Shown piece after piece: positions 22,701 through 58,714 of a stretch of DNA of 64,000 nt. The notes below the pieces were generated by a model. The model worked only from the letters and a program-made list of their open reading frames with translations. It searched no databases and was not told the origin of the DNA. This DNA comes from Rhodothermales bacterium (GTDB lineage: Bacteria; Bacteroidota; Rhodothermia; Rhodothermales; Bin80). The DNA is taken from contig OZ242302.1 of assembly GCA_965208025.1 (NCBI GenBank), forward strand, positions 2,797,980 through 2,861,979. The letters are read 5' to 3'. Every line of letters starts with the position of its first letter. Position 1 is the stretch's first letter. The position numbers were made by a program, and so were the translations under genes.

Positions 22701-24290
22701 ATAGAGGAAGGACATCCGAGTGAACAGGTTGGGGAGGGAGATACCTATGTCCCCGTAGATACCGATGCAGGGGCAAGTCTTAGGGTTCGGGTTGCATTCG
22801 TGGACGACGCAGAGTTTGAGGAGAGGTTGGAAAGTCCTCCCCGACAGGTTCGCTACACGAGTCGAATCCGTACGGCATGGATGGGACGTCTAGGACGGAC
22901 GGTGGCGGATCAGGTCTTGCGGGCAACGCAGTGTGAAGGGCGTGTACAGCGGTCCCGGCGCAATGAAGTCTATCTGGCGGGGCAGCCCTTGACATTGGCT
23001 TCGTTGCCGAATTATGTGCATGTGCAAGAGGTCAAGCCGGACCGGCATGCTTTACTCCTTGGAACGACCGACCCGGTGTACCGGCTTGGCCATACGCTGA
23101 CGCGGGAGCGCCTATTGCAGGGCAGTTCATTCCGGCATGGGATGCAGGACGAAAGTGGAGTTTCTCTCTGGGGACATGGAGCGGTATCTCGCGTTCAGGG
23201 TTCGGAAGGGGCCTTGAACCTGGAGGGACGCATATCCAGTGGAATGCTGGGGGCAGACTGGATCGGAGACAAAGGGGGACTGAGCGTACTGGTAGCTCAT
23301 ACACGCTCCGAGGGCGAGTATGCGATGGCAGATGATAAAGGTTTGCATTCCGCCTATCTGACCGGAGTATACCCTAATGGGTGTTATGCGCTCACGCCGG
23401 GGCTCACGGCGTGGGGTGTGGTCGGATATGGTCATGGATCCATGACCGTGGAACAGGTTCCCGCCCCTATAGATCTGCGGATGGTCGGTGGGGGAATTTA
23501 TGGGCGAGTCCGTACGGTGACGAAGCGAGGACTGGAGCTTGGGATTCGTTCGGATGCTTTGCTGGTACAGATGGCCGCGAGTGGGACCGAGGAGTTGTCA
23601 GAAGATCAGGTGCAGGTATCTCGGTTGCGGCTGGGATTGCAAGGAACCATACGGGGGATCCATTTGGGAAAACGATCTACGATAGAGCCAGCAGCGGAGT
23701 TGGCCCTCCGTCATGATGGCGGCGATGCAGAGACAGGATTCGGGGTAGACATGCAGGTCGGGTTCATACTTTCGGCGCCAGCGAGTGGTCTGAGCATGGA
23801 GGTGAGCACGCGTGCAATACTGACGCACCAAGACAGCGGACTTCAGGAGCAGGGGCTTGCTGGAGCGGTGACTTGGGATTCTCGGCCCCACTCCAACGAG
23901 GGATTCCAAATCCGAATGGAGCACACTATTGGGGCAGATGTCCTCGGTAGTACAGAGCGGTTGCTACGAGCTGAAACGATCCAGCCACCATATGCAATCT
24001 ATCAAGCGGGAGACCTGCGAGTGCAGGCAGGCTACGGGTTTGCCCTGTTCTCCAAGGCACTAACCCTGAAACCAGAAGTTAGCTTCAGCGGATGGGGACA
24101 GCAGCGCAGGTATGAGATGGGATGGAACCTTGCAAGGGCAGATGAGCATCCGACCAATGTGCAACTCTTTGTCGGCACAACTGGGCAAACGCAGCAAGAT
24201 GCTCCTCTGCAACTCCAGCATCTGATCCGCCTGCAACTCAAAAACAGTTCAAATAGACTCGCGAAGTCCAAGCGGAGGCATGAGGATTAA
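16701..24290 (+). CDS. Giant adhesin-like protein (2529 aa), paralogous in architecture to 1613-9820: Ig-like domain, LRR block, 11 tandem Calx-beta-like modules, cadherin-like domain, autotransporter-like barrel
   Basis: A signal-peptide-like segment FSPIGLFLVLVSFFPSLVWA|QD lies at residues ~65-83, so the start is uncertain. An Ig-like domain (DTTPPTVSSATVDETTLVVVFSE..) lies at ~16950-17290. About 8-9 LRRs of 24 aa (LTSLHxDLFDGLTSLxxLxLxxNx) follow. One type-B module and 11 type-A ~115-aa modules lie at 18423-22206. A cadherin-like domain (EEDTPHPFGISDFGYNDPEGDPL...FDFKVSDGTSES...VTPVNDV) lies at ~22215-22540. The C-terminal barrel-like region contains VSLWGHGAVSRVQG..MLGADWIG... Confidence 0.82.
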   Translation: MYLSNFQSIYPLFFVQIFLLSFVFSVKSIGDRVSGQDRSEQGFQIFWITKVFLSCRNSRIKWRHFSPIGLFLVLVSFFPSLVWAQDTTPPTVSSATVDETTLVVVFSEELVSVSGLTNSAFTVKKRPSRGSEEDQSLIGTPTVSGETVTLTSSSPVIASDRGTVKVSYTAPTESDAKLRDAAGNNVVDFMDLKVLNLRSGICSRTEVVKDLILNEITRTEFCDEVTSNDLSNIPYLSFSEMGITELKSGDFNGLSNLASLNLATNSLTSLPQDLFDGLTNLDLLNLFANSLTSLHEDLFDGLTKLETLGLGENPLTSLHQDLFDGLTSLNRLQLRTNSLTDLHPDLFDGLTSLTRLELHTNALTNLHQDLFDGLTSLEWLELDNNALTDLHPDLFDGLTSLSRLELQNNSLKSLHPDLFDGLTSLEEILLDNNSLTCVPAKIFSRASIRISPSSLAACPALSVTLSTNPSTIGEEDEATEVAVTGTLNVLQSTATPVTVSVGSGTATSGTDFTAVSDFTISILGNTLSATGTFTLTPTSDTVDEPDETVMITGTSVVEDVTVNGTSLTITDNDATPTVTLHLSPTSIGENAGSSMVTATLNHPSSEETTVTISLDPTLPATDSDYTLSGSTLTIAAGATESTETVTIAAEDNNVIAPDKIVTVQGTASNTQGIIDPTDVELTITDDDLELIVTLILSPASIGENAGTTTVTARLNQASSEVTTVTVTTLPDAPAVNSDYTMSPNPTLIIAAGSTESTGLVTITAADNLVDAPDKTVQVQGTATNAQGDISPVNVELTIMDDEEAPTVTLTLEPASITENAGIATVTGVLNRPSSAVTTILVSALPDAPAAATDFALGGNLRLTIAAGETNSTGLVTITSVDNAVDGPDKTVQVQGTATNIQGVTGPEAVDLTITDDDLAPAVTLSLSPASITENNGVTTITATLDRPSSEGTTVTITTLPDAPATELDYTQDGDLLTIAAGETESTGLVTITAVDNAMNAPNKTVLVQGIATNTQGLTGPEDVELTILDDDLTPTVALELSQVSIGENGGQTTITATLSRPSSEITIIEVTVFPEAPATESDYTLSGRTLTIVAGETGSSEVMTITAVDNTTDTPDKTVQVQGEVTSSLGVTSPPPVQLTITDDELTPTVTLMLDPPIISENGGRTTVTAMLNHPSSAMTTVVVSALANPPAMASDLMLSQNTILTMAAGETESTRIVTITAVDNAVDAPDKTVQVQAVATNPQGVTVPADVVLTITDDEEVNPAVSLILTPASIGENGGQTTVTATMDPPSSFVTMIVVSVLPNAPATESDCQISDNSTLTIAAGETESTGLVTITAVDNEVSAPAKTMQVQGTVTNPQDVTGPIGVELTITDDEALPTVMLMLDPSTIEENGGRTTVTASLNRVSGMVTTIEVTVLPDASATESDYQISANPTLTIAAGEIKSTGLVTITAIDNEVDAPDKTVQVQGIATNAQGITGPAEVELTITDDEEMPQVKLQLDPPTIAENGGMTTVTATQDRASSEETTITISVFPTAPATESDYTLSIYRILTIAAGDTESTGLVTITAVDNKVDAPDKTVQVQGKVTSSLGVTSPPTVQLTITDDEAVPAVTLQLDPATIAENGESTTVTATLDRASDEETSIAVSVLPDAPATASDYVLSDHLTLTISAGELTSAGLVTITAVDNEVDAPDKTVEVRGMATNAQGVTDPADATLTITDDEEAPVVTLVLDPSTIGENEGRTTVTAILNRPSSAVTTIAVTALPDAPATESDYQLSDNQILTIAAGETESMGCMTITAVDNEVDAPNKIIQVQGMATNTQGMTDPAAVTLTITDDDESFPVAQDATVTTEEDTPHPFGISDFGYNDPEGDPLAAVRIERHPDAGTLTLGGIGFAAGTQILVAQISAGELVFTPVANAYGPAYTSFDFKVSDGTSESPSAARMTIDVTPVNDVATGRPQIIGSMQLGQVLRVSVEEIQDLDGLRRAQAGETGYGYRYQWLRIEEGHPSEQVGEGDTYVPVDTDAGASLRVRVAFVDDAEFEERLESPPRQVRYTSRIRTAWMGRLGRTVADQVLRATQCEGRVQRSRRNEVYLAGQPLTLASLPNYVHVQEVKPDRHALLLGTTDPVYRLGHTLTRERLLQGSSFRHGMQDESGVSLWGHGAVSRVQGSEGALNLEGRISSGMLGADWIGDKGGLSVLVAHTRSEGEYAMADDKGLHSAYLTGVYPNGCYALTPGLTAWGVVGYGHGSMTVEQVPAPIDLRMVGGGIYGRVRTVTKRGLELGIRSDALLVQMAASGTEELSEDQVQVSRLRLGLQGTIRGIHLGKRSTIEPAAELALRHDGGDAETGFGVDMQVGFILSAPASGLSMEVSTRAILTHQDSGLQEQGLAGAVTWDSRPHSNEGFQIRMEHTIGADVLGSTERLLRAETIQPPYAIYQAGDLRVQAGYGFALFSKALTLKPEVSFSGWGQQRRYEMGWNLARADEHPTNVQLFVGTTGQTQQDAPLQLQHLIRLQLKNSSNRLAKSKRRHED
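17455..18020 (+). repeat. In-frame 72-bp tandem repeats (LRR units), ~8 copies
   Basis: The motif ctcacgNNtctacatcNagatctgtttgatggactcaccagctta... recurs every 72 bp and encodes LT(S/D/N)LH(P/Q/E)DLFDGLT(S/K/N)L. Confidence 0.85.
18423..22206 (+). repeat. In-frame ~345-bp tandem repeats (Calx-beta-like type-A modules), 11 copies
   Basis: The module starts are PTVTLHLSP, LIVTLILSP, PTVTLTLEP, PAVTLSLSP, PTVALELSQ, PTVTLMLDP, PAVSLILTP, PTVMLMLDP, PQVKLQLDP, PAVTLQLDP and PVVTLVLDP. Each is followed by ..ENGGxTTVTAxL..SS..TT..V..LPDAPATESDY..LTIAAGETESTGLVTITAVDNxVDAPDKTVQVQG. Confidence 0.85.
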
Positions 24291-24563
24291 CTCAATCCAA
24301 AAAATAATTATTTGAGATAAGGTTATGGAGTTGTCTCTAGAATCTGTCCAGACGATCAGAGGATCAACTCTGCTGAAGTGCACCCATTTCCCCGAGGACT
24401 CTACATGGGAATTCGGGGGAATGAATGGGTTTGCCCAGCGAAAGGTTCGTTTATCAATCTTTAAAAGTTTAGCCTTTGAACAGTCTCCTATCTCTGAACC
24501 TCAAAGAGTCCCATGTATGAATCAAGAACGAATCGCCTCCTGAACTGGATTTATGGGTGGGTT

Positions 24564-24646
24564 CAGAGATTTCCAAGATCTCTAACCAAATAGGTGACAG
24601 AATTTTAGAATTGGGTATTGCGGAAAAATAGCATCCCCCCCTCCGA
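24564..24646. repeat. Left copy of an ~83-bp imperfect direct repeat (partner at 30698-30780)
   Basis: cagagatttccaagatctctaaccaaataggtgacagaattttagaattgggtattgcggaaaaatagcatccccccctccga aligns to catagatctccaagattctcttaccaaataggttacagaattttagaactgggtattgcggaaaaatagcatcccccctccga. By eye there are about 7 differences, including 2 single-base indels. Confidence 0.85.
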
Positions 24647-25035
24647 CCTGACTTCGACGGTTTGCAATTCTCTAAAAACAAAGAAAGCCTTATTTTTCAG
24701 TGGGTATAGGTCTTCTGAAAAGAGTGTTCAGACAAGTTTGAACACTACAAACACCGTCGGTTCTGCCGCTTTTTGCGGTCTGAATACCAGACGTTAAGCA
24801 ATCACTTGGGAGGCGGGTTACGGGTCGTCTTTCGTTTGAGTTTGCGGACGAACATGATACAGGTAAGATACGACACACGGTTCAAATATCTAAATCTCAA
24901 AAATAGACTGAACACTACATATTGGGAACTCGGAAAACAGGGCTAAAATGGCCCCAAATACTCCAAAAAGGCCCCAGAATCACTCAAGAATGACTATTTT
25001 GCCCTTCAAGTCAACACCTACCTGTCGAAGTCAGG
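24647..25035. mobile_element. MITE-like 389-bp element with 14-bp terminal inverted repeats CCTGACTTCGAC(G/A)G
   Basis: The left end is cctgacttcgacgg (24647-24660). The right end ctgtcgaagtcagg (25022-25035) is the reverse complement with 13/14 matches. No credible ORF lies inside. The same CCTGACTTCG motif forms the end of the IS21-like remnant at 29943. Confidence 0.55.
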
Positions 25036-25041
25036 AATTTC

Positions 25042-25290
25042 TTTCCACTCAGGGACGAGCGCTTTACCGTAGTGACAGATGACGGATTCTCGTTTATATC
25101 TGTGCGAGCACAAAATGGTGCAAAAGGACTACATACAACGTTTGGTAATAGTGAAATAGGATCTTATGCCCGGAACAGATTAGGGGTGCCTTCTATTACA
25201 TAGAAAGAAAGACAACATCTACTTAATTACAGTAGATTAGACATTGGATTTACGAAGATTGATGACGAAACCTACCTTCCGGAATTCAGC
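25042..25290 (+). pseudogene. Possible remnant of the C-terminal DNA-binding domain of a PLD/NgoFVII-type restriction endonuclease
   Basis: One frame reads FPLRDERFTVVTDDGFSFISVRAQNGAKGLHTTFGNSEIGSYARNRLGVPSIT*KERQHLLNYSRLDIGFTKIDDETYLPEF, with an in-frame stop. The pattern (xTDDGxS..., LGxYxRxRLGV..., YGRxxIxFxKIDDETY) resembles C-termini of that family as I remember them. No N-terminal catalytic part is present. Confidence 0.3.
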
Positions 25291-25823
25291 CCCAACCTTT
25301 CACCAGTCAAACAAGAAATACTTGAACCGCTCATTCAAAGTGTTCTCGGATCAACACAGTATCGACAATCTGGATATAGTGTAGCAGATGCAACAGATGG
25401 TCGCCTGCATAGTCTGGGACGTCTGAGGTACAGGGACTTGACCCACTAAACTAGGGATTGATCTTATCCTTGTAATCAAGTTTTTCTAAATAATCTTCTA
25501 GCCGACCTCTCGATTCTTGGAATTTATGGCATACCTCTGAAATTGATTTAATCACCGCATGAATTTCTTCTTGCAATTTTATTGGTGCTCATACAAAATT
25601 AGTCAAAGCTTCTCATAACTTATCAGGTGCTTTTGGGAGATCGCCCAATGATTTCCATAATCCAATTAGGTCATCTCTAAAAGTACGAGATTCGTTGTTG
25701 GCATTTTCTTTGAGGTCTGTGTTGCGTGATAACTATCTGCCTCACCTATTTTCTTGCAGAGGCGATTCATCCAGCAAAGCTACACCGATTTTTTTGAAGT
25801 CATTAAGACACGGTCAAACCGCC

Positions 25824-26168
25824 TCAAAAGTCCATGCCCAACAAAATCACGTTAGACGTCATTGACACTAATGATACACCTGTTTCTGTCCTGTCAGCCA
25901 GTGTCACATCTGCCAATCCTGTAATCATCATCAAAGCTGAATTGTTGGCCAATGCTACCTTCTGCACACCTTCAAGGGGCAAGGAAAGAGCAACAGCTTC
26001 GTGAAAAGGCAACTGAAGGAATCCAGTAAAACCAGTGTCAATTATGCCTTCATATCTCACGCCTAGATGCTCATGCTTTGTCCCACAGATATGTAAATAA
26101 ACACACGCATTGCCATATCGATCATGGTGACCAACCGTAACTTGACCAGTGTTATTGTGATCCGACAT
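25824..26168 (-). CDS. Retropepsin-like (clan AA) aspartic protease, DTGF type
   Basis: The protein is ~115 aa and has the active-site motif IIDTGFTGFLQLP and a C-terminal LLGMDF. Size and motif fit the AF_0612/TIGR03698-type bacterial/archaeal retropepsin-like family. The start could be ATG 26180 or 26168. Confidence 0.7.
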   Translation of the reverse strand: MSDHNNTGQVTVGHHDRYGNACVYLHICGTKHEHLGVRYEGIIDTGFTGFLQLPFHEAVALSLPLEGVQKVALANNSALMMITGLADVTLADRTETGVSLVSMTSNVILLGMDF

Positions 26169-26418
26169 ACCGTACCCCAAGCGAGACTGGTTGACCTATT
26201 CTAACCAAATAGAATACACCATGGGGGCACTTCTCTCGTGCTTCCATTAGGGCAATCTCTCCATATTTTCCCAAGTAAGATTTTCCTGTTAAGACATCTA
26301 TTGCAACATATTCTCCCATGTTTGAGGATTCAAGTTTTTCTTTCAGAGTTTTACGATAAATCTCCTCCCCTACTTCGCCAATTTGTTCTGGTCTGACAGG
26401 AACTGCTTTAGTAGACAT
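26152..26418 (-). CDS. Small protein (88 aa) immediately upstream of, and overlapping, the retropepsin-like gene; DUF5678-like
   Basis: It is co-directional and overlaps the protease ORF by 17-29 nt. The segment GEYVAIDVLTGKSYLGKYGEIALMEAREKCPHGVFYLVRIG resembles the small partner proteins often found next to such proteases. That assignment is from memory, not verified. Confidence 0.5.
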   Translation of the reverse strand: MSTKAVPVRPEQIGEVGEEIYRKTLKEKLESSNMGEYVAIDVLTGKSYLGKYGEIALMEAREKCPHGVFYLVRIGQPVSLGVRYVGSQ

Positions 26419-26826
26419 GGTTATTCTCTATTTGGTTGATGTAATACGTGAAAATTTTTAATTCTCCCTCTAAGATTTACACGCTGAGCAGAAGTTCTGC
26501 CTAATCCGTAGATCGGTCAGGAGATCACCGAGCGGCAAAGGACGGCTCATAGGCTTGGCAATAGAGCATGGTTGCTAGTTGTTGGTTAAGGATACAGTAA
26601 GTTTACGAAAGCTCCATAATAAGTTATGCCGGTTCATGCGAAAAGATCTAAACTGATTCAGCAGGCTCTTTTGAAATGTCTCATCAATTGCGTGGAATAA
26701 TGGGGTAGCGATTCGGGTTTGTTTGTGACCCAAAAAAGATACCTCCCAGAGCAGATCAGTTCCCTGATATTCTCAATACAAAAATCCGCCAATCATGAAA
26801 ATACCTCAAAAAATCATCCAATTGAG

Positions 26827-26844
26827 GAATTTTGAAAGAGGCTC
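26827..26844 (+). mobile_element. Solo terminal repeat of the IS family seen at 1-1134
   Basis: gaattttgaaagaggctc matches the copy A terminus gagttttgaaagaggctc (1117-1134) at 17 of 18 positions. No further similarity lies to the left. Confidence 0.5.
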
Positions 26845-27224
26845 CTACGTCAGGAAAATGTTCTCAACAATATCGTGAGAATATCATTGGTAAATCAAGC
26901 TTAAATTCTGCTATCAAAGAGCCATTATCTATTACACTGTCCAATTGTCCGGCACCTGCATAGGTGAGGGGGCTGTCCAAAGGGAAGATTCGGGTGCTCC
27001 TAAATTGCACGCCCGTTTCAAGTATAGAGGGCTGGATTGTAACCGGAGATGATTTGAAGTTTACGGGAAACAGAGGAAGGGAAAACAAAAGAACTCCCAA
27101 TTCTAAATAAAATCACCCTGCCTCTGGACTAAAGATTATTCATCAAAAATTGACACAAATTATATTGATATTCAGCTGCAGATTTCATAGGCTAAATTTA
27201 CTAATCCATATCACAACAGTTCCC

Positions 27225-27473
27225 ATGAAAAAAGTCGGTTATGTCTCAGCAGGTGTATTGTGTGCCGTGTTGGTCTTCGTATTCGTGCTGTTACCATCCT
27301 TGGAGATTGTGCGGGCTGCTAGTGTACCTAATCTTAGGTACTCCGAGAGTAGAAACGAAGGGTGTTTCTCTCCATGTGGTACATATGTATCGTGTGGTGG
27401 TGATTGTGGGGGTGGCGGCGATTGTTGCTCCCCTGGTGCTCCGCAAGGTTCTTCTTGCTTATACTGTGAATAG
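27225..27473 (+). CDS. Small secreted or membrane-anchored Cys/Gly-rich peptide (82 aa)
   Basis: ATG at 27225 gives MKKVGYVSAGVLCAVLVFVFVLLPSLEIVRA|AS.., a signal/TM segment with an AxA-like site. The C-terminal 36 aa are CFSPCGTYVSCGGDCGGGGDCCSPGAPQGSSCLYCE (8 Cys, 9 Gly). The track ORF start at 27150 adds an unlikely N-terminal extension. Confidence 0.55.
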   Translation: MKKVGYVSAGVLCAVLVFVFVLLPSLEIVRAASVPNLRYSESRNEGCFSPCGTYVSCGGDCGGGGDCCSPGAPQGSSCLYCE

Positions 27474-28527
27474 AAGCTTGCATTTTTTTTCTGTTTTTGC
27501 ATGTGTACTTTGGTTGTTATTCATTTCGGCATGTCAATCTGAGGCACCCAATAACCATAGCTATCGTGTGGTAGATTCTGGCTACATGAAATTTGAAGAT
27601 CTTTTCATTCCGGTAGATACTATTCGTTTTGCTCCCTCGGTGCTTGTCGGTAACAGGAGTTTTGTGGATCTATCCGATCAGGGTGAGTTTTTAGTGACTG
27701 ACGATGTGATGCGGAAAATTCATCTGTTCACAGCCTCGGGACTTCATATCCGTTCGTTGAAGATCTCACAGTGCAATCCAGAAGACACCGGGCTCCTCCT
27801 GAGCACACGATTCTTGGGCAATGGTAGCATGATTGCTACTACGATAAACGGTGTCTATGTCTTAGATTCCGATGGATCTTGTAAGCAACGACTCATGGAG
27901 TTGCCTCCAAATTGTCCATCCTTCTGTGAACGGCAAGACACGGTCTATTTTCTAGATCAATTTGTTCAGCCCCCTCAAGTTCTTGCTCTTTCCATTGAAT
28001 CGGGTATCGTTAGGAACTATGATCTCAGAACTCCTGAATTTCCAAGGACAACGAGTATCAAAAAGGGATATACGGGGAGGCAGATTGCCTGTTTTGATCA
28101 TGGTATATTTTATCGGTATTCTGAGAGCAGTGACGGGGAATTACTTCGTCCCAGTAGCAATCAAGTAATGCATCAACCAGTATCCTATCGTCCGCCCAGA
28201 CGGGATCTGACCTCTTGGGGTAGTGAGCGTATGAGGGAACTGAGGGAACTTTCGCGGGAGTTTACTTATTCGGACGGGATTTTTGAACTAGATGCAAGCT
28301 ACAGAATGGTGACGTTTCAGTATCCTTCCGACCCTAATGTTAATATAATTAACATGACCACAGAGACCAGCATAAGTACTTCAACGGGTCGGTTCATCAT
28401 GCTGGCCAAAAATGGCCTTTTGTATGTGTCGGGAGATTACGAGCGACTTCCCTCGGGTGAGACGGGCAATCGAACACTTGAGGTATGGAAATTCCAACCA
28501 TTTGAGTCGTCATCGTATACTGACTGA
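27466..28527 (+). CDS. Lipoprotein, probably beta-propeller fold (BF3164-like 6-bladed propeller?)
   Basis: GTG at 27466 gives MNRSLHFFSVFACVLWLLFISAC|QSE, a lipoprotein signal with lipobox ISAC. This start overlaps the stop of the peptide gene by 8 nt (GTGAATAG). Upstream of 27466 the track ORF (from 27241) runs through the peptide gene in another frame. The body is ~330 aa and beta-rich with repeated hydrophobic/Gly/Asp blade-like segments. The family call is tentative. Confidence 0.6.
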   Translation: MNRSLHFFSVFACVLWLLFISACQSEAPNNHSYRVVDSGYMKFEDLFIPVDTIRFAPSVLVGNRSFVDLSDQGEFLVTDDVMRKIHLFTASGLHIRSLKISQCNPEDTGLLLSTRFLGNGSMIATTINGVYVLDSDGSCKQRLMELPPNCPSFCERQDTVYFLDQFVQPPQVLALSIESGIVRNYDLRTPEFPRTTSIKKGYTGRQIACFDHGIFYRYSESSDGELLRPSSNQVMHQPVSYRPPRRDLTSWGSERMRELRELSREFTYSDGIFELDASYRMVTFQYPSDPNVNIINMTTETSISTSTGRFIMLAKNGLLYVSGDYERLPSGETGNRTLEVWKFQPFESSSYTD

Positions 28528-28610
28528 GTTGGTGAAGTATATTTTCACTTGAAATGTTTCTGATCTTGCGGATGAAGCGATGAGACAAATCTGACTTTCA
28601 AGAGAAAGAT

Positions 28611-29153
28611 ATGAAAAAGATTTTCTGGTTTGTCGGTCCCTTTATGTGTACATTGATCATCTGCATCGGCGCCTGGTGGGTAATATTTTCCCAAATCGTT
28701 ATACCGAGTGAAAATGTTGCAGCGCCTTCAAGTAGTTTACTTTTGAATATGCAGTTTCCTACATCTGACATCACGGATGCGAGGAGTGGTGAACCAGTGT
28801 CCCTGCCAGCGGATACATTGTCTAATGCGGTAGTCATTTTACTTGGCGGGATCGGATGCTCTCGTAACCAAGTAGAGGTGCTCCGATGGTGGAAAGAGAA
28901 TGAGAGGGTATTACATACAACAGGGCAGAGCATTCTGACTCTGTATGCCGATCCTCTAATGGGGGTGGATAGGAGTCGGCATGAGTCTCTTCTGCTGCGA
29001 CGAGCAAGCGAGGTGAATTATCCTGCTTTGGTGTATGGGGGCGGGAAGTTCAATCCTCGTTCTATGGGAATTCAAACTCCCCAGACGGTGCATGTACAGG
29101 ATGGGCGTATAGTGGAGGTAATTCCCTATAAGCATTCTATGGGGATACAATAG
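28611..29153 (+). CDS. Membrane-anchored thioredoxin-fold (TlpA/ResA-like) protein with a single Cys in place of CxxC
   Basis: The N-terminal TM helix is MKKIFWFVGPFMCTLIICIGAWWVIF. The layout F.T.D..G.PVSL......AVVILLGGIGCSRNQVEVLRWW ... YPALVYGG ... GIQTPQTVHVQDGRIVEVIP follows the TlpA-like pattern (FWAxWCxPC ... fPvl ... P.tflid.dG.iv). GCSRN replaces WCxPC. Confidence 0.55.
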   Translation: MKKIFWFVGPFMCTLIICIGAWWVIFSQIVIPSENVAAPSSSLLLNMQFPTSDITDARSGEPVSLPADTLSNAVVILLGGIGCSRNQVEVLRWWKENERVLHTTGQSILTLYADPLMGVDRSRHESLLLRRASEVNYPALVYGGGKFNPRSMGIQTPQTVHVQDGRIVEVIPYKHSMGIQ

Positions 29154-29373
29154 TACTTCTAGGAATATAGAATTCGAGAGGCGTTTCGGGTTAGAAACTG
29201 AGGTATACTACTCCATAATTGATGTCCAGAGTGCGTCAAAGAACATAAAGCGTGATTCTGGCTTTTAGCACTGGATTACAGTCTTGACGAAATGATTTTA
29301 TAATTCTTGGTTCTACTACAGTTGTCTTGAATGATTAACTCTGGTTGAACCAAACTTATTCATCTTCATGTAT

Positions 29374-29836
29374 GAGCCTCTTTCAGAATTCTTTATTCTC
29401 CCCTGTTGCCCCCCGCTGATTTAGGGCTTAAACTGGTTCAGTTTCGTCAGATTACGCGAATCCTTGGTACGGGTTCGCCGTTTTGTGGAGTCGATCGGTT
29501 CTTTGCCTGCACGGATGTCTCTGTTTGGTGAATTTTGTCCATGATCCGTGTAGATTTCACACACCCCTCCCACGGCTTCTGTGGTTCAAAGCACCCAAAT
29601 TCTGTTATGTTAGGTGTTAGATGGCCGGTTTACTGGACCATCCGTAGCAGTTGGTCCACCGTGAGTACCACCACGCTGAACATCAAATGACAGAGGACTT
29701 TCTCGTGCCCACGGGCGCGGATATTGCGTCCACCGAACTCATCTTTGAGCCGCCCAAAGGCCCGCTCCACGGTCGAACGTTCCCGGTAGCGAACCCGCTC
29801 AGCAGGAATGAATCCGGCCGTCCGTTGCGCCTTTTC
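29374..29836 (-). mobile_element. Truncated inverted copy (3' ~460 bp) of the IS at 1-1134
   Basis: 29374-29836 aligns to the reverse complement of ~676-1134 at roughly 85-90% identity by eye. This covers the terminus gagcctctttca(g/a)aa and the last ~70 transposase codons (..FIPAERVRYRERSTVERAFGRLKDEFG..). Similarity ends abruptly at ~29836. Confidence 0.8.
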
Positions 29837-29942
29837 ACAAGTTTGTCATTTCCCCTCTGGTGGATTAATATTTAGCTCTGATTTGGGGTTTTTTTGCTCT
29901 GGACTCCCTGTTTTCCTCTGATTTTCGCCTGTTTTTCAGGTT

Positions 29943-30665
29943 CCTGACTTCGTATATATTCAGATGAAATTGCCAGTCTATTCAGGTATAATGGAAAAAA
30001 CGGGCGCATACTTTCTCCGTTCAAGTGCTATTCATCCATTATACCTGAATATACAGTCGAAGTCAGAAATTATGCCTTTACCCCGATTATTCATGCGTAC
30101 ACTATTCCGAATTTTAGAGCTTCACTTCGTCGAGAAGTTCTCAATCCGTGCGATTGCACGGACCGTGGGATGTAGTCAAAGTTCCGTTGCTCGGATTCTT
30201 GAACGCGCGAAGATTGCCAAGCTTTCATGGCCACTTCCCGAGGGAATGACCGATTCGGATGTGGAGCGGATCCTGTATCCGGCCCGTATGTCTTCGGTTG
30301 AACGTCCACTCCCGAATTGGATGGAGGTCTACAAGGAACTGTCCCAACACCGATCGCTAACCTTACATCAGGTATGGACGGAATAGATAGAACAGAATCC
30401 CAACGGATATCTGTATAGCCATTTGTGTGATCTCTATCGCCAGTGGCGTCGCGCGCATAAAGATGCTGTTGTGCATCTGGACCGCAAAGCCGGCGAACGT
30501 TTGTATGTGGATTATTCAGGAAAGAACCTGTGGATCACGGATCGCCGGACAAGAGCGAAGCGATCGGTGACTCTTTTGTTCGGAATACGCACCAGTGAAT
30601 CCGCCATGGAACAACTTAGATCAGTGTTACCGTTGAGTTGTGATGGGAGTGGTAGAGACGGATAA
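29943..30665 (+). mobile_element. istA: IS21-family left end plus istA pseudogene (in-frame stop, 3'-truncated)
   Basis: The terminal motif cctgacttcg is at 29943-29952, and an inverted copy (ctgaatatacagtcgaagtcag) is at 30045-30066, just before ATG 30072. IstA reads MPLPRLFMRTLFRILELHFVEKFSIRAIARTVGCSQSSVARILERAK..LTLHQVWTE*IEQNPNGYLYSHLCDLYRQWRR..KAGERLYVDYSGK. It has an HTH, a TAG where Tyr is expected, and loses similarity by ~30600. No istB follows. Confidence 0.7.
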
Positions 30666-30697
30666 ACATCTCAATCGGTTAAATGCAAGGACGGACT

Positions 30698-30780
30698 CAT
30701 AGATCTCCAAGATTCTCTTACCAAATAGGTTACAGAATTTTAGAACTGGGTATTGCGGAAAAATAGCATCCCCCCTCCGA
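30698..30780. repeat. Right copy of the ~83-bp imperfect direct repeat (partner at 24564-24646)
   Basis: It covers the last 13 codons, the stop, and ~42 nt downstream of the FG-GAP/VCBS gene (minus strand). See the alignment under 24564-24646. Confidence 0.85.
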
Positions 30781-32569
30781 GGCCGCCACTGAATAAATCA
30801 AGGTCTCCGTCACGGTCAATATCTATGAATGCAGGGACGGCAAGGATTGGGAAAGAAGCGGGCAGGGGAATAGATTCAACAAATCGTGGTTGAGTGGGGG
30901 TACCCTCGTTCATGTAGACGACCACTCCATCAATCTCTCGTCCCAAAATTAGATCCTGATCTCCATCTCCATCCAAGTCAGCAAAACGGGGAACGCTTCG
31001 CCGCCCAACATCAATATCCTCAAATTTGTCGCTGATCAGGTCAAATTGAGGTGAACCGAGAGAACCATTGTTGCGATAAAAATTCAGATCTCCCGAAGAT
31101 TCGCCAATAAATAGGTCCAGATCACCATCCGCATCAATATCCACCAAAGCCGGAGTACTGTTGCTGCCCCGAGTCAAAACCACCGTTTTGCTCTCATCCT
31201 GTACAAAATTCGGCACCTGTGGGGTTCCATCATTCCTGAAATAGAGACTTCCCTTGTTCCATGTCCCCACCAACATATCCAGATCCCCGTCCGCATCCAG
31301 GTCAGCCACCGCAGGTGCTAAGTTGTAATATCCTACAATATCAAGTGGATCCCGCTCCTGCCAACTCAATTGTCCAGAAACCGATACATTTTCAAAATAA
31401 TAAATCGTCCCAGTATTAAAATCCTGCGTCGAAATCTTGTTGGAAATCAAGAGATCATGATCCCCGTCACCATCCAAGTCCGCGAATACAGGATAAGAGT
31501 CTGCTCCAACATCAATTCCAGAAAGTAGGGTTTTTGTTCTGACTTCAAACCCCTCCGGTGTAGGATCTATATGATAGAGATTCTCTACTGCGGACTTACT
31601 TGGGTTAAATGCGCCACCTAAGACCCCAAAGATCAATTCCGAAATCCCATCTCCGTCAAGATCGGCAAACTGGACCGAGTTGTAACCACTGGTCTTGATC
31701 GGGTTGTTGGGAGGATAAGCAATTGGTTCATTCCGAAGATTTGGTTCCGTACAGCTTCCAGTATTGGAAATAAGCAAGATCCCCGCCTCAAAAAAATCCC
31801 CCCAAAAAAGATCCTGATCTCCGTCCTGATCAATATCATGGAAGGATAGGGCATTCGCGCCGTGTAGGGTTGCAAACATCCCAACAATCTCTATATCCTC
31901 AAACCGGTCGGTCACCAGTTGAAATCTGGGAAGCCCCGATTCATCCGCACCAACTGATTCATAATGCAACACTGTACCACTTACGCGTCCAATAAACAGG
32001 TCTAGTAATCCATCACAATCCAAATCCGTAATCGCTGGTATATTCTGACGGTCCATGAAGAGTGGAACTCCCTCGGCGTCTCGGAGCGAGTCCATGGGAG
32101 TAGCGAAGGATGGAGAGGTTGGTGTTCCCTCGTTACGGAAGAGCCGCACATAACTGAATGTTGTTTCGCCAAGCAAATCATAGTCGCCATCCTGATCCAG
32201 ATCCAAGAACCGATACCATTCGCCGACATCCAGATCCAAGTATTGGTCGCTACGCCAGATAAAGGAAGGGGCAAGGGGGGTGCCTGTATTTTCAAAGAAT
32301 TTGACATGACCTGTCAACTCCTGAATGAATAGATCCAGATCCAGATCTCCATCAATATCCACCAGTTGGGGTCTGGGAAGGTTAAATCCGCCATGGAACG
32401 GATGATCAAGGCGATCACCGTCTCTGCCGATTACTTCAATCCCATAGACTTCTTGCGTGTAAGACGGGGGAAAGGACGGCAGGTCCAGACTCGTCGTTTG
32501 CGTACTTGCGCAGCCTGTCAAAAATAGGAAGACAAGACCCAGAAAGGCACGGCCTCTAACGAGTCCCAA
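30740..32569 (-). CDS. FG-GAP/VCBS-repeat lipoprotein
   Basis: It has many repeats of the type D(L/I)DGDGDxDL(F/L/I)..G, for example VDIDADGDLDLFIGES and FADLDGDGDQDLILG. The likely start is TTG at 32569, giving MGLVRGRAFLGLVFLFLTGC|AST (lipobox). The longer track ORF (to 32800) runs through the 3' end of the upstream gene. Confidence 0.75.
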   Translation of the reverse strand: MGLVRGRAFLGLVFLFLTGCASTQTTSLDLPSFPPSYTQEVYGIEVIGRDGDRLDHPFHGGFNLPRPQLVDIDGDLDLDLFIQELTGHVKFFENTGTPLAPSFIWRSDQYLDLDVGEWYRFLDLDQDGDYDLLGETTFSYVRLFRNEGTPTSPSFATPMDSLRDAEGVPLFMDRQNIPAITDLDCDGLLDLFIGRVSGTVLHYESVGADESGLPRFQLVTDRFEDIEIVGMFATLHGANALSFHDIDQDGDQDLFWGDFFEAGILLISNTGSCTEPNLRNEPIAYPPNNPIKTSGYNSVQFADLDGDGISELIFGVLGGAFNPSKSAVENLYHIDPTPEGFEVRTKTLLSGIDVGADSYPVFADLDGDGDHDLLISNKISTQDFNTGTIYYFENVSVSGQLSWQERDPLDIVGYYNLAPAVADLDADGDLDMLVGTWNKGSLYFRNDGTPQVPNFVQDESKTVVLTRGSNSTPALVDIDADGDLDLFIGESSGDLNFYRNNGSLGSPQFDLISDKFEDIDVGRRSVPRFADLDGDGDQDLILGREIDGVVVYMNEGTPTQPRFVESIPLPASFPILAVPAFIDIDRDGDLDLFSGGLGGGMLFFRNTQF

Positions 32570-33911
32570 GACCCGTGGGATTGGGTCCCACTTCAAGCAT
32601 CCTTGTGATTTCACGTGTGTTGGTGTCAATGACCGCAATGACGCCTGGAAGATATCCATCCTGCCACATGTAGCGACCATGATAGGCTCCCTTAAGATTA
32701 TTGTTGGAAATATACACGGTACGTCCATCCGGTGAGATAGCAGCCCCATGGGGCTCAGAAAGCCCATCAATCGTTGCAGCAACGGCGCGCTGAGCAACAT
32801 CTACAACGGTTGCCCGATTCCCCATTTTATTACCGAACCACACGAAGTTGCCATCTGGACTGAAGACAGGATGCCAAGGTGCCATTCCGACTTGAATGGA
32901 TCCATCCAAAGTTGGATCGGAAGGATCGGATGTATCAAAGAAGAAAAATTCTCCAGTAAGCTGTCCTCCAACTACCATCGTTTGACCATCTGGAGAGACG
33001 GCAAATTGCACCAGTGTGTGCGTATCTCCTTCAATAGATTGCAATTCAGGAATTTCAGCTGCATGATCTACGGTAGCCATGCGATTTTCTGCGAGACTGG
33101 CCACATAGACGTACGTTCCCGTCAGATCTGTGGCAAGTGCGTGAGGGCGCGGAAAAAATACGTCCAACTCCTCTATGTTCATCCCATCACGTTCAACAAT
33201 CCCAATTCGTTGAGGTGGGTTCACGGCTTTCATGGAACGTCCAACAAATAAGAGACTATCGGTAGGGCTGACGACTAACATGCCCGGCCGCTCAAATGCA
33301 ATCTGATCAATCAGTTCATTCTGCTGATTGAACTTAAGCACTCTGTCATCCCCAATCAGAGATACATAGAATGCAGAGCCATCAGGTTCAACGGCAACAT
33401 GATGCGGACGAGAGTCAGCGGTGAATCCAAGCTCCTGCAAGTCAATCGTACGAATGATTAGGTTCGTGTCCATATCAATGACAGCAATCTTAGCGGCACC
33501 TTGGATGCAGGCATACAAAAGGTTGAAGGCATCGGAGTAGGCAATGCGGCCGTCATCATTCGGCGCTCCTTGTTCAATCCATGAACGGATCAGGGAGAGA
33601 TCTTCTTCGGATACATGTGCAGCATGGACGCTCAGCGAGTCCTCGGCAGAGAGCTTGGTCGCAAGACGGATGAGTAAACTACCTTCTGGGTCGTAGGGAA
33701 TTACAACTTCCCCATGATCCGACCCTGCAAGGATTGTATCCCATGATTCAAGGGATAGACCAGTCTCCCGTTCAAGAAGAGGTACAAATTTTTCCTGAAT
33801 GATCGGCAGTACATGATCACTGAAACGCAGCGATGCGGATTGCGCCTGAATATTCCCCACTACAACAATGAGAAATAGCGCAACACATGACAGATGTCTC
33901 ATCATCCTCAT
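32556..33911 (-). CDS. Secreted protein: heme-less PSCyt1-like N-terminal domain plus YncE/YVTN-type beta-propeller
   Basis: The signal peptide is MRMMRHLSCVALFLIVVVGNIQAQ. The N-domain FSDHVLPIIQEKFVPLLERETGLSLESWDTILAGSDHGEVVIPYDPEGSLLIRL...SEEDLSLIRSWIEQGAP follows the Planctomycete-cytochrome-c (PSCyt1) pattern without the CxxCH. The remainder has YVSLIGDD/YVYVASL/VYISNNN-type blade repeats. Confidence 0.65.
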   Translation of the reverse strand: MRMMRHLSCVALFLIVVVGNIQAQSASLRFSDHVLPIIQEKFVPLLERETGLSLESWDTILAGSDHGEVVIPYDPEGSLLIRLATKLSAEDSLSVHAAHVSEEDLSLIRSWIEQGAPNDDGRIAYSDAFNLLYACIQGAAKIAVIDMDTNLIIRTIDLQELGFTADSRPHHVAVEPDGSAFYVSLIGDDRVLKFNQQNELIDQIAFERPGMLVVSPTDSLLFVGRSMKAVNPPQRIGIVERDGMNIEELDVFFPRPHALATDLTGTYVYVASLAENRMATVDHAAEIPELQSIEGDTHTLVQFAVSPDGQTMVVGGQLTGEFFFFDTSDPSDPTLDGSIQVGMAPWHPVFSPDGNFVWFGNKMGNRATVVDVAQRAVAATIDGLSEPHGAAISPDGRTVYISNNNLKGAYHGRYMWQDGYLPGVIAVIDTNTREITRMLEVGPNPTGLGTR

Positions 33912-33925
33912 ACGTTGTCCCTCTT

Positions 33926-36319: not shown

Positions 36320-36380
36320 CTGTGTGGTTAGTAAATTGTTAAGTTGGTACTGTGTTGATTCGAATAGGATGCATGATGAA

Positions 36381-38273: not shown

Positions 38274-38278
38274 AAAGG

Positions 38279-51635: not shown

Positions 51636-51693
51636 TTCCAAGCCCAAGTTCGTAACTTTATGGCACCAAAAAATGGCGAACTTGGACTAGGAT

Positions 51694-58696: not shown

Positions 58697-58714
58697 TCAT
58701 GCATTCACAGCCAG

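What the first reader, a model, noticed from the sequence alone, without database searches (positions are those of the whole stretch)
27225..29153. IS-bracketed three-gene cassette: 8-Cys/Gly-rich secreted peptide, translationally coupled beta-propeller-like lipoprotein, membrane-anchored 1-Cys thioredoxin-fold protein
Seen in the sequence:
- An 82-aa ORF has an N-terminal signal/TM segment and a 36-aa C-terminus, CFSPCGTYVSCGGDCGGGGDCCSPGAPQGSSCLYCE. Its Cys pattern is C-x3-C-x5-C-x3-C-x5-CC-x9-C-x2-C.
- Its stop overlaps by 8 nt (GTGAATAG) the GTG start of a lipoprotein with a clean lipobox (LLFISAC).
- 83 nt further on lies a TM-anchored TlpA-like thioredoxin-fold protein whose CxxC is reduced to GCSRN.
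- The three genes are co-directional and sit in visibly AT-richer DNA.
- They lie between two inward-facing termini of the same IS family (26827-26844 and 29374-29836).

Established knowledge: in Bacteroidota, small N-terminally anchored peptides (NVEALA family) co-occur with BF3164-type 6-bladed propeller lipoproteins in loci of unknown function. Thioredoxin-fold partners are typical of oxidative peptide maturation or immunity.

Inference: this could be a mobile peptide-production or peptide-handling module (bacteriocin-like, metal-binding or signalling peptide) of a type I cannot place in any described RiPP or bacteriocin class. No radical-SAM, protease-ABC exporter or GG-leader is present.
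Basis: partly seen in the sequence, partly recalled or inferred. Interest (0 to 1): 0.7.

Follow-up and report, generated by a model that had tools for sequence, protein, structure and literature searches.

The report
Mobile three-gene envelope cassette, Rhodothermales
A real, conserved and mobile three-gene cassette from uncultured marine Rhodothermales, probably sponge-associated, encodes a small exported 8-cysteine protein, a six-bladed propeller lipoprotein and a membrane-anchored one-cysteine thioredoxin-like protein; none matches a curated family model and their function is unknown.

Summary

**The three genes**
- **A (27225-27473):** a genuine gene. Intact copies lie directly upstream of B in 12 other places. 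All 8 Cys are invariant. dN/dS is 0.26 in its frame, against 1.0 and 1.4 in the other two frames. The 428-aa gene call that overlaps it is wrong.
- **B (27466-28527):** a lipoprotein with a confident six-bladed, NHL-like propeller model. It is only a remote relative of Pfam DUF5128.
- **C (28611-29153):** a TM-anchored thioredoxin fold in which CxxC is reduced to C-S-x-[N/D]-Q.

**Conservation and mobility**
- The A-stop/B-start junction lies within a few bases in 13 of 14 units examined.
- The A-B-C order recurs in at least four other genomic contexts. One is an [A-B]x3-C array plus an ISL3 transposase inserted between nuoC and nuoD.
- A and C are kept or lost together: 8 of 8 loci with a complete C have an intact A, and 0 of 13 loci without one do. 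B persists alone under purifying selection.

**What is absent:** no maturase, exporter or GG leader is present, and A is not an NVEALA protein.

**Best reading (confidence about 0.4):** an envelope module. B is the binding core, A is a coupled disulfide-rich partner, and C handles A's thiols. A bacteriocin/immunity reading remains open. I rate this a new variant of a known kind, of moderate interest.

The parts
26827..26844 (-). Solo terminal inverted repeat of a DDE_Tnp_1 (IS4/IS5-type) insertion sequence. Its outer end faces the cassette.
   Evidence: 17/18 match to 29374-29391 and 16/18 to the IS end at 1117-1134. Three matches against 0.09 expected. Inverted pair I2.
27225..27473 (+). Gene A: 82-aa exported small protein. 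Residues 1-31 are a signal peptide or signal anchor (MKK + 20 hydrophobic residues + P-x-L-E-x-x-x-A). Residues 32-46 are a variable polar linker. Residues 47-82 are the 8-Cys domain.
   Evidence: Twelve other intact copies. All 8 Cys plus Y6, G10, C13, L16, F18, V19, L23, P24, A31 and G71 are invariant. NG86 dN/dS is 0.26 in this frame versus 1.00 and 1.36 in the others.
27363..27470 (+). Cys-rich domain of A, C47 to E82 (C-x3-C-x5-C-x3-C-x5-CC-x9-C-x2-C). It is acidic and Gly-rich.
   Evidence: No Pfam, NCBIfam or PDB relative.
27466..27473 (+). GTGAATAG: the B start codon (GTG) overlaps the A stop codon (TAG) by 8 nt, a translational-coupling junction.
   Evidence: The same ctGTGaaTAG junction occurs in 7 units, TTGaaTAG in 2, and TGAcATG in 3. 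An in-frame B start within a few bases of the A stop was found in 13 of 14 units.
27466..28527 (+). Gene B: 353-aa lipoprotein (lipobox I-S-A-C, Cys23 at 27532-27534) with a six-bladed NHL-like beta-propeller. Four conserved Cys (103, 139, 154, 209).
   Evidence: 78 homologues at 49-66% identity. AF2 pLDDT 91.5, pTM 0.85. Foldseek: 4raa BF0058 E 2.5e-9, then Brat/TRIM2 NHL domains. Profile versus PDB NHL E 1.2e-7.
27241..28527 (+). Erroneous 428-aa gene call (P0001). It runs B upstream through A in another frame.
   Evidence: That frame has dN/dS 1.0 and 1-6 stops across the A region in every homologue.
28611..29153 (+). Gene C: 180-aa protein with an N-in TM helix (residues 4-27) and a periplasmic thioredoxin-fold domain. 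It has a single active-site Cys83 (28857-28859) in the invariant motif C-S-x-[N/D]-Q, and a cis-Pro loop T156-P157-Q158.
   Evidence: 14 homologues. AF2 pLDDT 82. Foldseek: FetE 8t4c E 6e-7, then ResA, Bcp and TlpA-like proteins.
29374..29836 (-). Truncated 3' end of the same IS: terminal repeat 29374-29391 and a transposase C-terminal fragment at 29630-29770. Its outer end faces the cassette.
   Evidence: Inverted copies of window 675-898 (94%) and 900-1098 (85%). The 46-aa fragment hits DDE_Tnp_1 and DDE_Tnp_1_6.
24579..24640 (.). Left copy of a 62-nt direct repeat that bounds the 6.1-kb low-GC island (44.2% GC) holding the cassette and the IS debris.
   Evidence: 95% identical to 30714-30775. 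GC values.
30714..30775 (.). Right copy of the 62-nt direct repeat. It overlaps the 3' end of the FG-GAP gene at 30740-32800 (-).

Best explanation
The cassette is a mobile, lineage-restricted cell-envelope module made of three exported proteins.

**B, the core.** B is a lipid-anchored six-bladed NHL-type propeller, a binding scaffold.

**A, the partner.** A is a small protein carried across the inner membrane by its N-terminal hydrophobic segment. That segment is either cleaved after the invariant Ala31 or kept as an anchor. Its 36-residue, 8-Cys acidic domain folds into a disulfide-rich knot. A is made together with B because its stop codon overlaps B's start. I infer that A docks onto the propeller as a small subunit or ligand.

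**C, the thiol handler.** C is an inner-membrane-anchored thioredoxin-like protein. It keeps the nucleophilic Cys but lacks the resolving Cys. I infer that it forms mixed disulfides with A, and possibly with B, to guide or check their disulfide pattern.

**Shown versus inferred**
- Shown: the genes are real, the folds and topology signals are supported, the coupling junction is conserved, A and C are retained together, the cassette is mobile, and B can persist without A and C.
- Inferred: physical A-B binding, C acting on A, and any role at the interface with the animal host.
For: - A is a real gene under purifying selection. dN/dS is 0.26 against about 1 in the other frames, all 8 Cys are invariant, and the -1 Ala is conserved.
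- The junction is tight. An in-frame B start lies within a few bases of the A stop in 13 of 14 units.
- B's lipobox is invariant. Its propeller model is confident and it has NHL profile matches.
- C has a TM helix plus a thioredoxin fold and an invariant C-S-x-[N/D]-Q motif.
- A and C are co-retained. A complete C accompanies an intact A in 8 of 8 arrays: the window, L002, L003, L154, L004, L155, L157 and L159. A complete C is present in 0 of 13 loci where A is broken or absent and there is room to see it.
- Within arrays A is more conserved than B. In L003 the A Cys domains are 89-97% identical and the B copies 75-91%. This fits a constant small partner with diversifying propellers.
- A second, unrelated small Cys-rich ORF has its stop overlapping the start of another propeller gene in L010 and L030. 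The 'small Cys protein + propeller' arrangement therefore recurs.
- The same gene order appears in at least four other genomic contexts.
Against: - There is no direct evidence that A binds B or that C acts on A. No complex model could be run.
- B stays intact and constrained where A is a pseudogene or absent (median dN/dS 0.21 versus 0.14), so A is not needed for B to be kept.
- Distant B-C pairs exist without any A-like ORF (L021, L161-163).
- I cannot tell whether A's N-terminus is cleaved or retained. It is 58% identical on average, against 47% for B's cleaved signal peptide.
- No expression data are available.
- No promoter or terminator signal stands out above shuffled controls.
Confidence: 0.4

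Rival explanations
1. Bacteriocin/immunity cassette. A is a Sec-exported, disulfide-rich antimicrobial peptide. C is its dedicated maturation oxidoreductase, by analogy with the Bdb proteins and sublancin (from memory). B is a lipoprotein immunity factor made by translational coupling whenever A is made.
For: - The putative toxin (A) and its maturation partner (C) decay together while the putative immunity gene (B) persists: 8/8 versus 0/13, with B under purifying selection. This is the classic orphan-immunity pattern.
- Tandem [A-B]n arrays occur.
- The cassettes sit among IS elements, a relaxase and transposases, and in several contexts.
- The A-to-B junction is tight.
- One A homologue gives a weak AtDEF-like defensin hit (E 0.0013).
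Against: - No exporter, lysis gene or outer-membrane route for a periplasmic peptide lies in any of the neighbourhoods read.
- Paralogous A copies within one array are nearly identical while the B copies diverge. This is the opposite of toxin diversification.
- dN/dS of the Cys domain is 0.30, with no sign of diversifying selection.
- As far as I recall, a 330-aa propeller is unlike known microcin or bacteriocin immunity proteins.
- A's hydrophobic N-terminus is as well or better conserved than a typical cleaved signal peptide.
Confidence: 0.2
2. Thiol-based metal or redox buffer. The 8 Cys of A stay reduced and bind a soft metal (Cu, Zn, Cd), or they act as a redox relay. C keeps them reduced or loads them, and B is the receiving or docking protein.
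For: - The paired Cys motifs (C-x3-C twice, CC, C-x2-C) in a Gly- and acid-rich 36-residue stretch recall metallothionein-like sites.
- C's best fold match is FetE, which the PDB entry calls a membrane-associated thioredoxin oxidoreductase. From memory, it belongs to an iron-uptake system.
- A distant C homologue sits beside a canonical CPWC thioredoxin, which suggests a redox relay.
Against: - Exported Cys-rich domains are normally oxidised in the periplasm (general knowledge).
- No metal transporter, regulator or chaperone is nearby.
- No His or Met ligands are conserved in A.
Confidence: 0.12
3. RiPP-like pathway. A is a precursor peptide and the propeller B is an enzyme that modifies it, helped by C.
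For: - Some six-bladed propellers of NHL or SGL type are enzymes (general knowledge). Two remote B relatives hit SGL.
- The genes are tightly linked.
Against: - No recognised maturase, protease or exporter is present, and there is no GG leader.
- B is kept where A is dead.
- Only two His are conserved in B (H94, H279). No recognisable catalytic motif was seen in the alignment, though none was searched for.
Confidence: 0.08
4. A is spurious and the true gene is the 428-aa ORF from ATG 27241, as the gene caller had it.
For: - The long ORF is open in the window and was called (P0001).
- Several homologues were called at 395-415 aa.
Against: - The extension frame has dN/dS 1.0 and 1-6 stops in every homologue.
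- The A frame has dN/dS 0.26 and invariant Cys.
- The lipobox sits 22 residues after the conserved GTG.
- A was called as a separate gene in other records.
Confidence: 0.02

Closest known systems
Pfam DUF5128 (PF17170), '6-bladed beta-propeller' of Bacteroidota (the BF3164/BF0058 type).
   Same: - Lipoprotein or exported six-bladed propeller of unknown function.
- B's best PDB fold match is BF0058 (4raa; E 2.5e-9, TM 0.58).
- 20 of 94 remote relatives found with the B profile hit PF17170.
- A distant C homologue sits in one cluster with a bona fide PF17170 lipoprotein.
- A small N-terminally hydrophobic ORF of about 80 aa lies directly upstream.
   Different: - B itself gives no PF17170 hit.
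- hhalign of the B profile against a PF17170 member is not significant.
- A has no NVEALA motif or hit and instead carries an 8-Cys domain.
- The thioredoxin-like third gene is not part of the recalled NVEALA/BF3164 pairing.
- I could not verify that pairing here.
NHL-repeat six-bladed propellers (TRIM2/3/71, Brat). NHL repeats are counted among the 'eukaryotic-like proteins' of sponge symbionts.
   Same: - Sequence-profile similarity: E 1.2e-7 with the B profile and 2e-20 with the wider superfamily profile.
- Fold match.
- NHL repeats are listed among eukaryotic-like proteins thought to help sponge symbionts avoid phagocytosis (PMC10947273).
   Different: - B alone does not reach the Pfam NHL model.
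- B is a lipoprotein with two probable disulfides.
- No partner like A or C is known for the eukaryotic NHL domains (from memory).
TlpA/ResA/DsbE/FetE-type membrane-anchored thioredoxin-like oxidoreductases
   Same: - N-terminal TM anchor plus a periplasmic thioredoxin fold.
- Cys83 sits at the N-terminus of helix 1, where the first Cys of CxxC lies.
- A cis-Pro loop (TPQ) is present.
   Different: - The resolving Cys is replaced, giving an invariant C-S-x-[N/D]-Q motif.
- No Pfam or NCBIfam thioredoxin model is matched.
- The PDB sequence-profile search finds nothing.
Methylamine dehydrogenase gene set (MauB propeller heavy subunit, MauA small disulfide-rich light subunit, MauD membrane thioredoxin-like protein). 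This is an analogy recalled from the literature.
   Same: A propeller protein, a small exported Cys-rich protein and a membrane-bound thioredoxin-like helper, all encoded together.
   Different: - No sequence match to Mau families.
- A has no Trp, so it cannot form a TTQ cofactor.
- No MauG or MauE-like genes are present.
- The B model is six-bladed. The MADH heavy subunit has seven blades (from memory).

Membership tests
Pfam PF17170 DUF5128 / BF3164-type propeller lipoprotein | Match to the PF17170 model at or above its gathering score | tested here: not met
   No Pfam family at E<=1 for B.
Pfam PF17170 DUF5128 / BF3164-type propeller lipoprotein | Six-bladed beta-propeller fold | tested here: met
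   AF2 pLDDT 91.5. Top PDB match is BF0058 4raa, followed by six-bladed NHL domains.
Pfam PF17170 DUF5128 / BF3164-type propeller lipoprotein | Detectable homology to family members | tested here: inconclusive
   The B profile finds 318 proteins, and 20 of 94 full-length remote hits match PF17170. hhalign against one PF17170 member is not significant.
Pfam PF14055 NVEALA | Match to the model, or presence of the NVEALA motif | tested here: not met
   No hit for A or for 8 homologues at E<=1. The motif is absent from the alignment.
Pfam PF14055 NVEALA | Protein of about 80 aa with an N-terminal hydrophobic segment, next to a propeller lipoprotein | tested here: met
NHL-repeat propellers | Sequence-profile similarity to NHL domains | tested here: met
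   E 1.2e-7 to 8suc with the B profile. E 2e-20 to TRIM2 with the superfamily profile. The single-sequence Pfam NHL scan was negative.
Bacterial lipoprotein | Lipobox [LVI][ASTVI][GAS]C after a hydrophobic segment | tested here: met
   I-S-A-C at residues 20-23. A22 and C23 are invariant. Hydrophobic stretch at residues 5-23. LipoP was not available.
TlpA/ResA/DsbE thioredoxin-like oxidoreductases | Thioredoxin fold with an N-terminal membrane anchor | tested here: met
TlpA/ResA/DsbE thioredoxin-like oxidoreductases | CxxC active site | tested here: not met
   Only Cys83 is present. The invariant motif is C-S-x-[N/D]-Q.
RiPP / class II bacteriocin loci | Maturase (rSAM, YcaO, Lan), peptidase-ABC exporter, or GG leader | tested here: not met
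   None in the island or in the neighbour gene lists of six related loci. A has a Sec-type N-terminus.
Methylamine dehydrogenase (MauA/B/D) | Matches to Mau family models, and Trp residues for the TTQ cofactor in the small subunit | tested here: not met
   No Pfam or NCBIfam hits. A contains no Trp.
Composite-transposon-like IS bracket | Two ends of the same IS flanking the cargo with their outer ends facing it | tested here: met
   The left IS is reduced to its 18-nt terminal repeat, so present-day mobility is doubtful.

The most novel reading that the evidence does not exclude
A, B and C form a previously undescribed class of mobile envelope system in marine, probably sponge-associated, Rhodothermales. 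It centres on a Sec-exported cystine-knot-like mini-protein that depends on its own one-Cys thioredoxin-like partner and works with an NHL propeller lipoprotein. The system would act either as a peptide toxin with propeller immunity or as a host-interaction factor whose propellers diversify while the small subunit stays constant.
Probability: 0.2. Interest if true: 0.7.

Novelty: new variant of a known kind. Interest (0 to 1): 0.5.

Why it matters
- **Uncovered families.** None of the three families matches a Pfam or NCBIfam model, and A and C have no sequence relative among solved structures.
- **Annotation errors.** The small gene is often mis-annotated. In the window's own genome it is swallowed by a false 428-aa call, and elsewhere it is skipped.
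- **Distribution.** So far the cassette is seen only in uncultured Rhodothermales genomes and metagenome contigs, several of which, to judge from record names only, come from sponges. It recurs in at least five genomic contexts, among IS elements, and forms arrays.
- **If A binds B with C's help:** this would be a bacterial example of a small disulfide-rich subunit paired with an NHL propeller. It would also give a first functional handle on the uncharacterised DUF5128-like propeller lipoproteins of Bacteroidota.
- **If A is a toxin:** this would be a new Sec-dependent peptide class with a new kind of immunity protein.
- **Either way:** the co-loss of A and C makes a clear, testable prediction.

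Tried and rejected
1. **Protein search with A.** It found nothing. This was a limit of the word index, not true absence. Exact look-up later showed that four A homologues are in the collection as unnamed or 'hypothetical' proteins.
2. **Metagenome scan with the 8-Cys DNA skeleton.** It was swamped by poly-TGY simple repeats. None of the 120 loci holds an A relative.
4. **Family and structure searches for A.** Pfam, NCBIfam, PADLOC and PDB-sequence searches gave nothing usable.
5. **PDB sequence-profile search for C.** Nothing. The fold call rests on AF2 plus Foldseek.
6. **hhalign comparisons.** The B profile against a PF17170 protein, and the C profile against a CxxC thioredoxin, were both not significant.
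7. **RNA and signal scans.** Rfam found no match in 24000-31000. The only tRNA in the window is tRNA-Leu at 58714-58797, far from the cassette. Promoter and terminator scans were not above shuffled controls.
8. **Viral contigs.** No B relative.
9. **The 428-aa fused ORF.** Rejected.
10. **Literature searches for NVEALA, DUF5128 and BF3164.** No paper that describes these families.
Full report
**1. What is in the window**

Three co-directional ORFs lie at 27225-29153.

*Gene A (27225-27473, 82 aa)*
- It starts MKK, followed by a 20-residue hydrophobic stretch with mean Kyte-Doolittle score 2.77.
- A Pro and the sequence ...IVRA|AS follow, then a polar linker.
- It ends in a 36-residue domain with eight Cys, spaced C-x3-C-x5-C-x3-C-x5-CC-x9-C-x2-C.

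*Gene B (353 aa)*
- A's TAG stop lies inside GTGAATAG. The GTG at 27466 opens B.
- B's N-terminus ends in the lipobox I-S-A-C.

*Gene C (28611-29153, 180 aa)*
- It starts 83 nt after B ends.
- It has an N-terminal TM helix and the motif GGIGCSRNQ.

*Base composition.* The cassette is 45.6% GC against 50.2% for the window. That is only the 18th percentile of equal-sized windows.

*IS elements*
- The cassette is flanked by an 18-nt inverted repeat, 26827-26844 and 29374-29391 (17/18 match).
- A third copy of the repeat (1117-1134) ends a DDE_Tnp_1 transposase gene at 26-880.
- 29411-29835 is an 85-94% inverted copy of that IS's 3' end.
- Both outer IS ends face the cassette, which is the geometry of a composite transposon. 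The left IS is reduced to its terminal repeat.

**2. Is the small ORF real?**

The gene caller for this genome did not call A. It called a 428-aa ORF from ATG 27241 that runs through A in another frame (P0001). A word-indexed protein search with A found nothing.

I therefore fetched 30 genomic loci encoding B relatives. All are from Rhodothermales, Rhodothermaceae or Bacteroidota MAGs. I searched their DNA directly. A-like coding sequence lies immediately upstream of B in most loci where B is at least 54% identical.

Evidence from the intact copies:
- In an alignment of nine copies with canonical start codons, all eight Cys are invariant, as are Y6, G10, C13, L16, F18, V19, L23, P24, A31 and G71.
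- Nei-Gojobori dN/dS, computed on eleven full-length copies, is 0.26 in the A frame.
- The frame of the 428-aa call gives 1.00 and the third frame 1.36.
- The 428-aa frame carries 1-6 stops in every homologue.

A is therefore a genuine gene under purifying selection, and the 428-aa call is wrong. Exact-sequence look-up later showed that four A homologues are in public collections, unnamed or labelled 'hypothetical protein' (for example MYD18185.1). Some records call them as 83-94-aa genes.

**3. The junction**

I examined 14 units with a full-length A:
- ctGTGaaTAG, an 8-nt overlap, in 7 units;
- TTGaaTAG in 2;
- TGAcATG in 3;
- an 11-nt overlap in one;
- an unresolved junction in one.

An in-frame B start within a few bases of the A stop was found in 13 of the 14. 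This is the signature of translational coupling.

**4. B**

- B has 78 homologues at 49-66% identity. None is named, and several genomes hold more than one.
- Ala22-Cys23 of the lipobox is invariant, and four further Cys (103, 139, 154, 209) are conserved.
- B matches no Pfam or NCBIfam model.
- The AlphaFold2 model is confident (pLDDT 91.5, pTM 0.85) and all-beta.
- Its best PDB match is the Bacteroides fragilis exported protein BF0058 (4raa; E 2.5e-9, TM 0.58). Six-bladed NHL domains of Brat and TRIM2 follow.
- A B profile matches an NHL-domain protein in the PDB at E 1.2e-7.

A profile search of 1.84 billion representative proteins found 318 relatives. Of 94 full-length remote relatives:
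- 20 hit PF17170 (DUF5128, '6-bladed beta-propeller');
- 31 hit the NCBIfam ScyF NHL model.

A profile of that wider set hits TRIM2, TRIM3, TRIM71 and Brat NHL domains at E 2e-20 to 4e-13. Direct hhalign of the B profile against one bona fide PF17170 protein is not significant.

B is thus a divergent NHL-type six-bladed propeller lipoprotein. It is a remote relative of DUF5128, not a demonstrable member.

**5. C**

- C has 14 homologues and no Pfam, NCBIfam or PDB-sequence hit.
- The AF2 model (pLDDT 82) shows a TM helix at residues 4-27 and a thioredoxin fold.
- Foldseek matches FetE, ResA, Bcp and many TlpA/DsbE-like proteins (E 6e-7 and weaker, TM 0.5-0.65).
- Cys83 lies between strand 73-78 and helix 85-96, where the first Cys of CxxC sits.
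- The family motif is the invariant C-S-x-[N/D]-Q. A TPQ cis-Pro loop is also invariant.

The defining CxxC is absent.

**6. How the three genes travel together**

I counted 31 B units at 50% identity or more. The state of A in each:

| State of A | Units |
|---|---|
| Intact, with a start codon | 12 |
| Full-length but lacking ATG/GTG/TTG | 2 |
| Broken by nonsense, frameshift or deletion | 13 |
| No trace | 4 |

B remains full-length and constrained either way. Median dN/dS is 0.14 among A-intact pairs and 0.21 among the rest.

C follows the last B of an array.
- In some searches, a complete C was present in all five assessable arrays with intact A. It was present in none of 13 loci with broken or absent A that had at least 3.6 kb of sequence after B. 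Remnants of C remain in L007, L011 and L018.
- I then tested the prediction on new data. Three more loci fetched through C homologues all carry an intact 8-Cys A upstream of B.
- The final tally is 8 of 8 against 0 of 13. The loci are not phylogenetically independent, so this is not a formal probability.

Further patterns:
- Arrays exist: A-B-A-B-A-B-C in L003 and L154, and A-B ... A-B-C-psiA-B in L002.
- Within L003 the A Cys domains are 89-97% identical while the B copies are 75-91% identical.
- Distant B-C pairs occur without any A-like ORF. L021 has B at 41% and C at 41%.
- L161-163 form a cluster made of a PF17170 lipoprotein, a 27% B-like protein, a 42% C-like protein and a canonical CPWC thioredoxin. 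It sits beside a Mob_Pre relaxase and a Tn5-like transposase.

**7. Mobility**

The A-B-C order is found in at least five contexts:
- the window, between a giant LRR protein gene and an FG-GAP gene, inside a 6.1-kb island of 44% GC bounded by a 62-nt direct repeat;
- OZ244823, among ISL3 and IS66 genes;
- two MAGs in which [A-B]x3-C plus an ISL3 transposase sits between nuoC and nuoD of the NADH dehydrogenase operon;
- three MAGs with the cassette between a Band_7 gene and an nSTAND-like NTPase gene, one of them with a DDE_Tnp_1 transposase nearby;
- a short contig, L004.

No relative was found on viral contigs. The cassette therefore moves as a unit and tends to sit among IS elements. The IS families differ between genomes.

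**8. Source organisms**

All loci are from MAGs or metagenome contigs labelled Rhodothermales, Rhodothermaceae, Bacteroidota or Bacteroidetes.

The sponge origin is inferred from record names, not shown:
- Isolate and record names include SB0661_bin, IRC3_bin, RHO1_bin and 'PetF'.
- The 'SB0661' prefix also appears in two papers on sponge symbionts.

The window also encodes giant LRR and Calx-beta proteins and FG-GAP proteins. NHL repeats are listed among the 'eukaryotic-like proteins' thought to help sponge symbionts avoid phagocytosis (PMC10947273).

**9. Mechanism**

*Shown*
- All three products carry export or anchor signals.
- A and B are coupled.
- A and C are kept or lost together.
- B can stand alone.

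*Inferred best reading (confidence 0.4)*
- B is the binding core.
- A is a small disulfide-rich partner that docks on B.
- C, which has a nucleophilic Cys but no resolving Cys, forms mixed disulfides with A to guide or check its four disulfides.

Two observations fit a constant small subunit with diversifying propellers. A is more conserved than B within arrays. A second, unrelated small Cys-rich ORF is coupled to another propeller gene in L010 and L030.

*Main rival (0.2): a Sec-exported bacteriocin (A) with a maturation partner (C) and a lipoprotein immunity factor (B)*
- For: it explains the co-loss of A and C with retention of B, the arrays and the mobility.
- Against: no export route is encoded, the A paralogues within an array are near-identical, and A shows no diversifying selection.

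*Lesser rivals.* A thiol-based metal or redox role (0.12) and a RiPP-like substrate-enzyme relation (0.08) are less supported.

**10. Comparison with known systems and novelty**

The nearest described things are:
- DUF5128/BF0058-type propeller lipoproteins of Bacteroidota, whose function is unknown;
- NHL propellers;
- TlpA/ResA-type membrane thioredoxins.

The recalled NVEALA/BF3164 pairing could not be verified here, and A is not an NVEALA protein. The methylamine dehydrogenase gene set (propeller, small disulfide-rich subunit, MauD) is an architectural analogy only. There are no model hits, and A has no Trp.

I class the cassette as a new variant of a known kind and rate interest at about 0.5. 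The reasons for that score:
- It is a solid, previously unrecognised gene family set with a clear evolutionary signal.
- It corrects an annotation error.
- It has no established function.

Noticed in passing
window 24579-24640 and 30714-30775: A 62-nt direct repeat (95% identical) brackets a 6.1-kb island of 44% GC. The island holds the cassette, IS debris and about 1.5 kb with no ORF longer than 72 aa (24300-25800). The right copy is the 3' end of the FG-GAP gene at 30740-32800 (-). This looks like an old insertion or att-like duplication.
   Followed up: partly
window 27241-28527: The gene caller's 428-aa product (P0001) fuses B to an out-of-frame read-through of A. Many B homologues in public data are likewise called 395-415 aa long, or from a downstream start, so A is hidden or skipped.
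   Followed up: yes
L153 8249-13986 and L154 5815-12078: In two MAGs an [A-B]x3-C array plus an ISL3 transposase is inserted between nuoC (Complex1_30kDa) and nuoD (Complex1_49kDa) of the NADH dehydrogenase operon.
   Followed up: partly
L010 4537-5915; L030 12274-11031 (-): A different small Cys-rich ORF (six conserved Cys, ...SECSFW...) has its stop overlapping the ATG of a 370-aa propeller protein by 4 nt. The pair is conserved in two MAGs (44% and 82% identity) and matches no Pfam family. In L030 the small ORF appears frameshifted.
   Followed up: partly
L161 1103-7322 (also L162, L163): Cluster on a metagenome contig named 'PetF': Mob_Pre relaxase, PF17170 DUF5128 lipoprotein, B-like protein (27% identity, TM-anchored), C-like protein (42%, 8-nt overlap with the preceding gene), a canonical CPWC thioredoxin and a Tn5-like transposase. 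A 49-aa signal-peptide ORF with two Cys lies upstream of the DUF5128 gene.
   Followed up: partly
window 29964-30665: Two ORF fragments in one direction. The first carries an HTH (Sigma70_r4_2 / HTH_38, E about 1e-5). From its N-terminal sequence it looks like a truncated IS21-type transposase.
   Followed up: partly
window 25824-26418 (-): Overlapping pair of small genes. One is a 118-aa retropepsin-like aspartyl protease (weak Asp_protease_2 hit, E 0.0012). The other is an 88-aa ORF with no family.
   Followed up: no
window 1613-9820 and 16701-24290: Two giant proteins (2735 and 2529 aa) with N-terminal leucine-rich repeats. Both genes hold long arrays of 345-nt (115-aa) repeats. In the first protein the repeats match Calx-beta. 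By eye, the C-terminus of the second resembles an autotransporter-type barrel.
   Followed up: partly
window 30740-40252 (-): A run of large minus-strand genes. The first (686 aa) is an FG-GAP/VCBS repeat protein with nine FG-GAP_3 stretches.
   Followed up: partly
window 51689-51938 and 53092-53342; 48785-48855 and 51565-51635: Further dispersed repeats at 88-96% identity around the 2020-aa gene at 45167-51229. They were not examined.
   Followed up: no
L155-L160, downstream of C: In three MAGs the cassette is followed by an 1151-1156-aa protein with faint nSTAND NTPase hits, then P-II and ammonium transporter genes. A 190-aa gene on the opposite strand always precedes the cassette.
   Followed up: no
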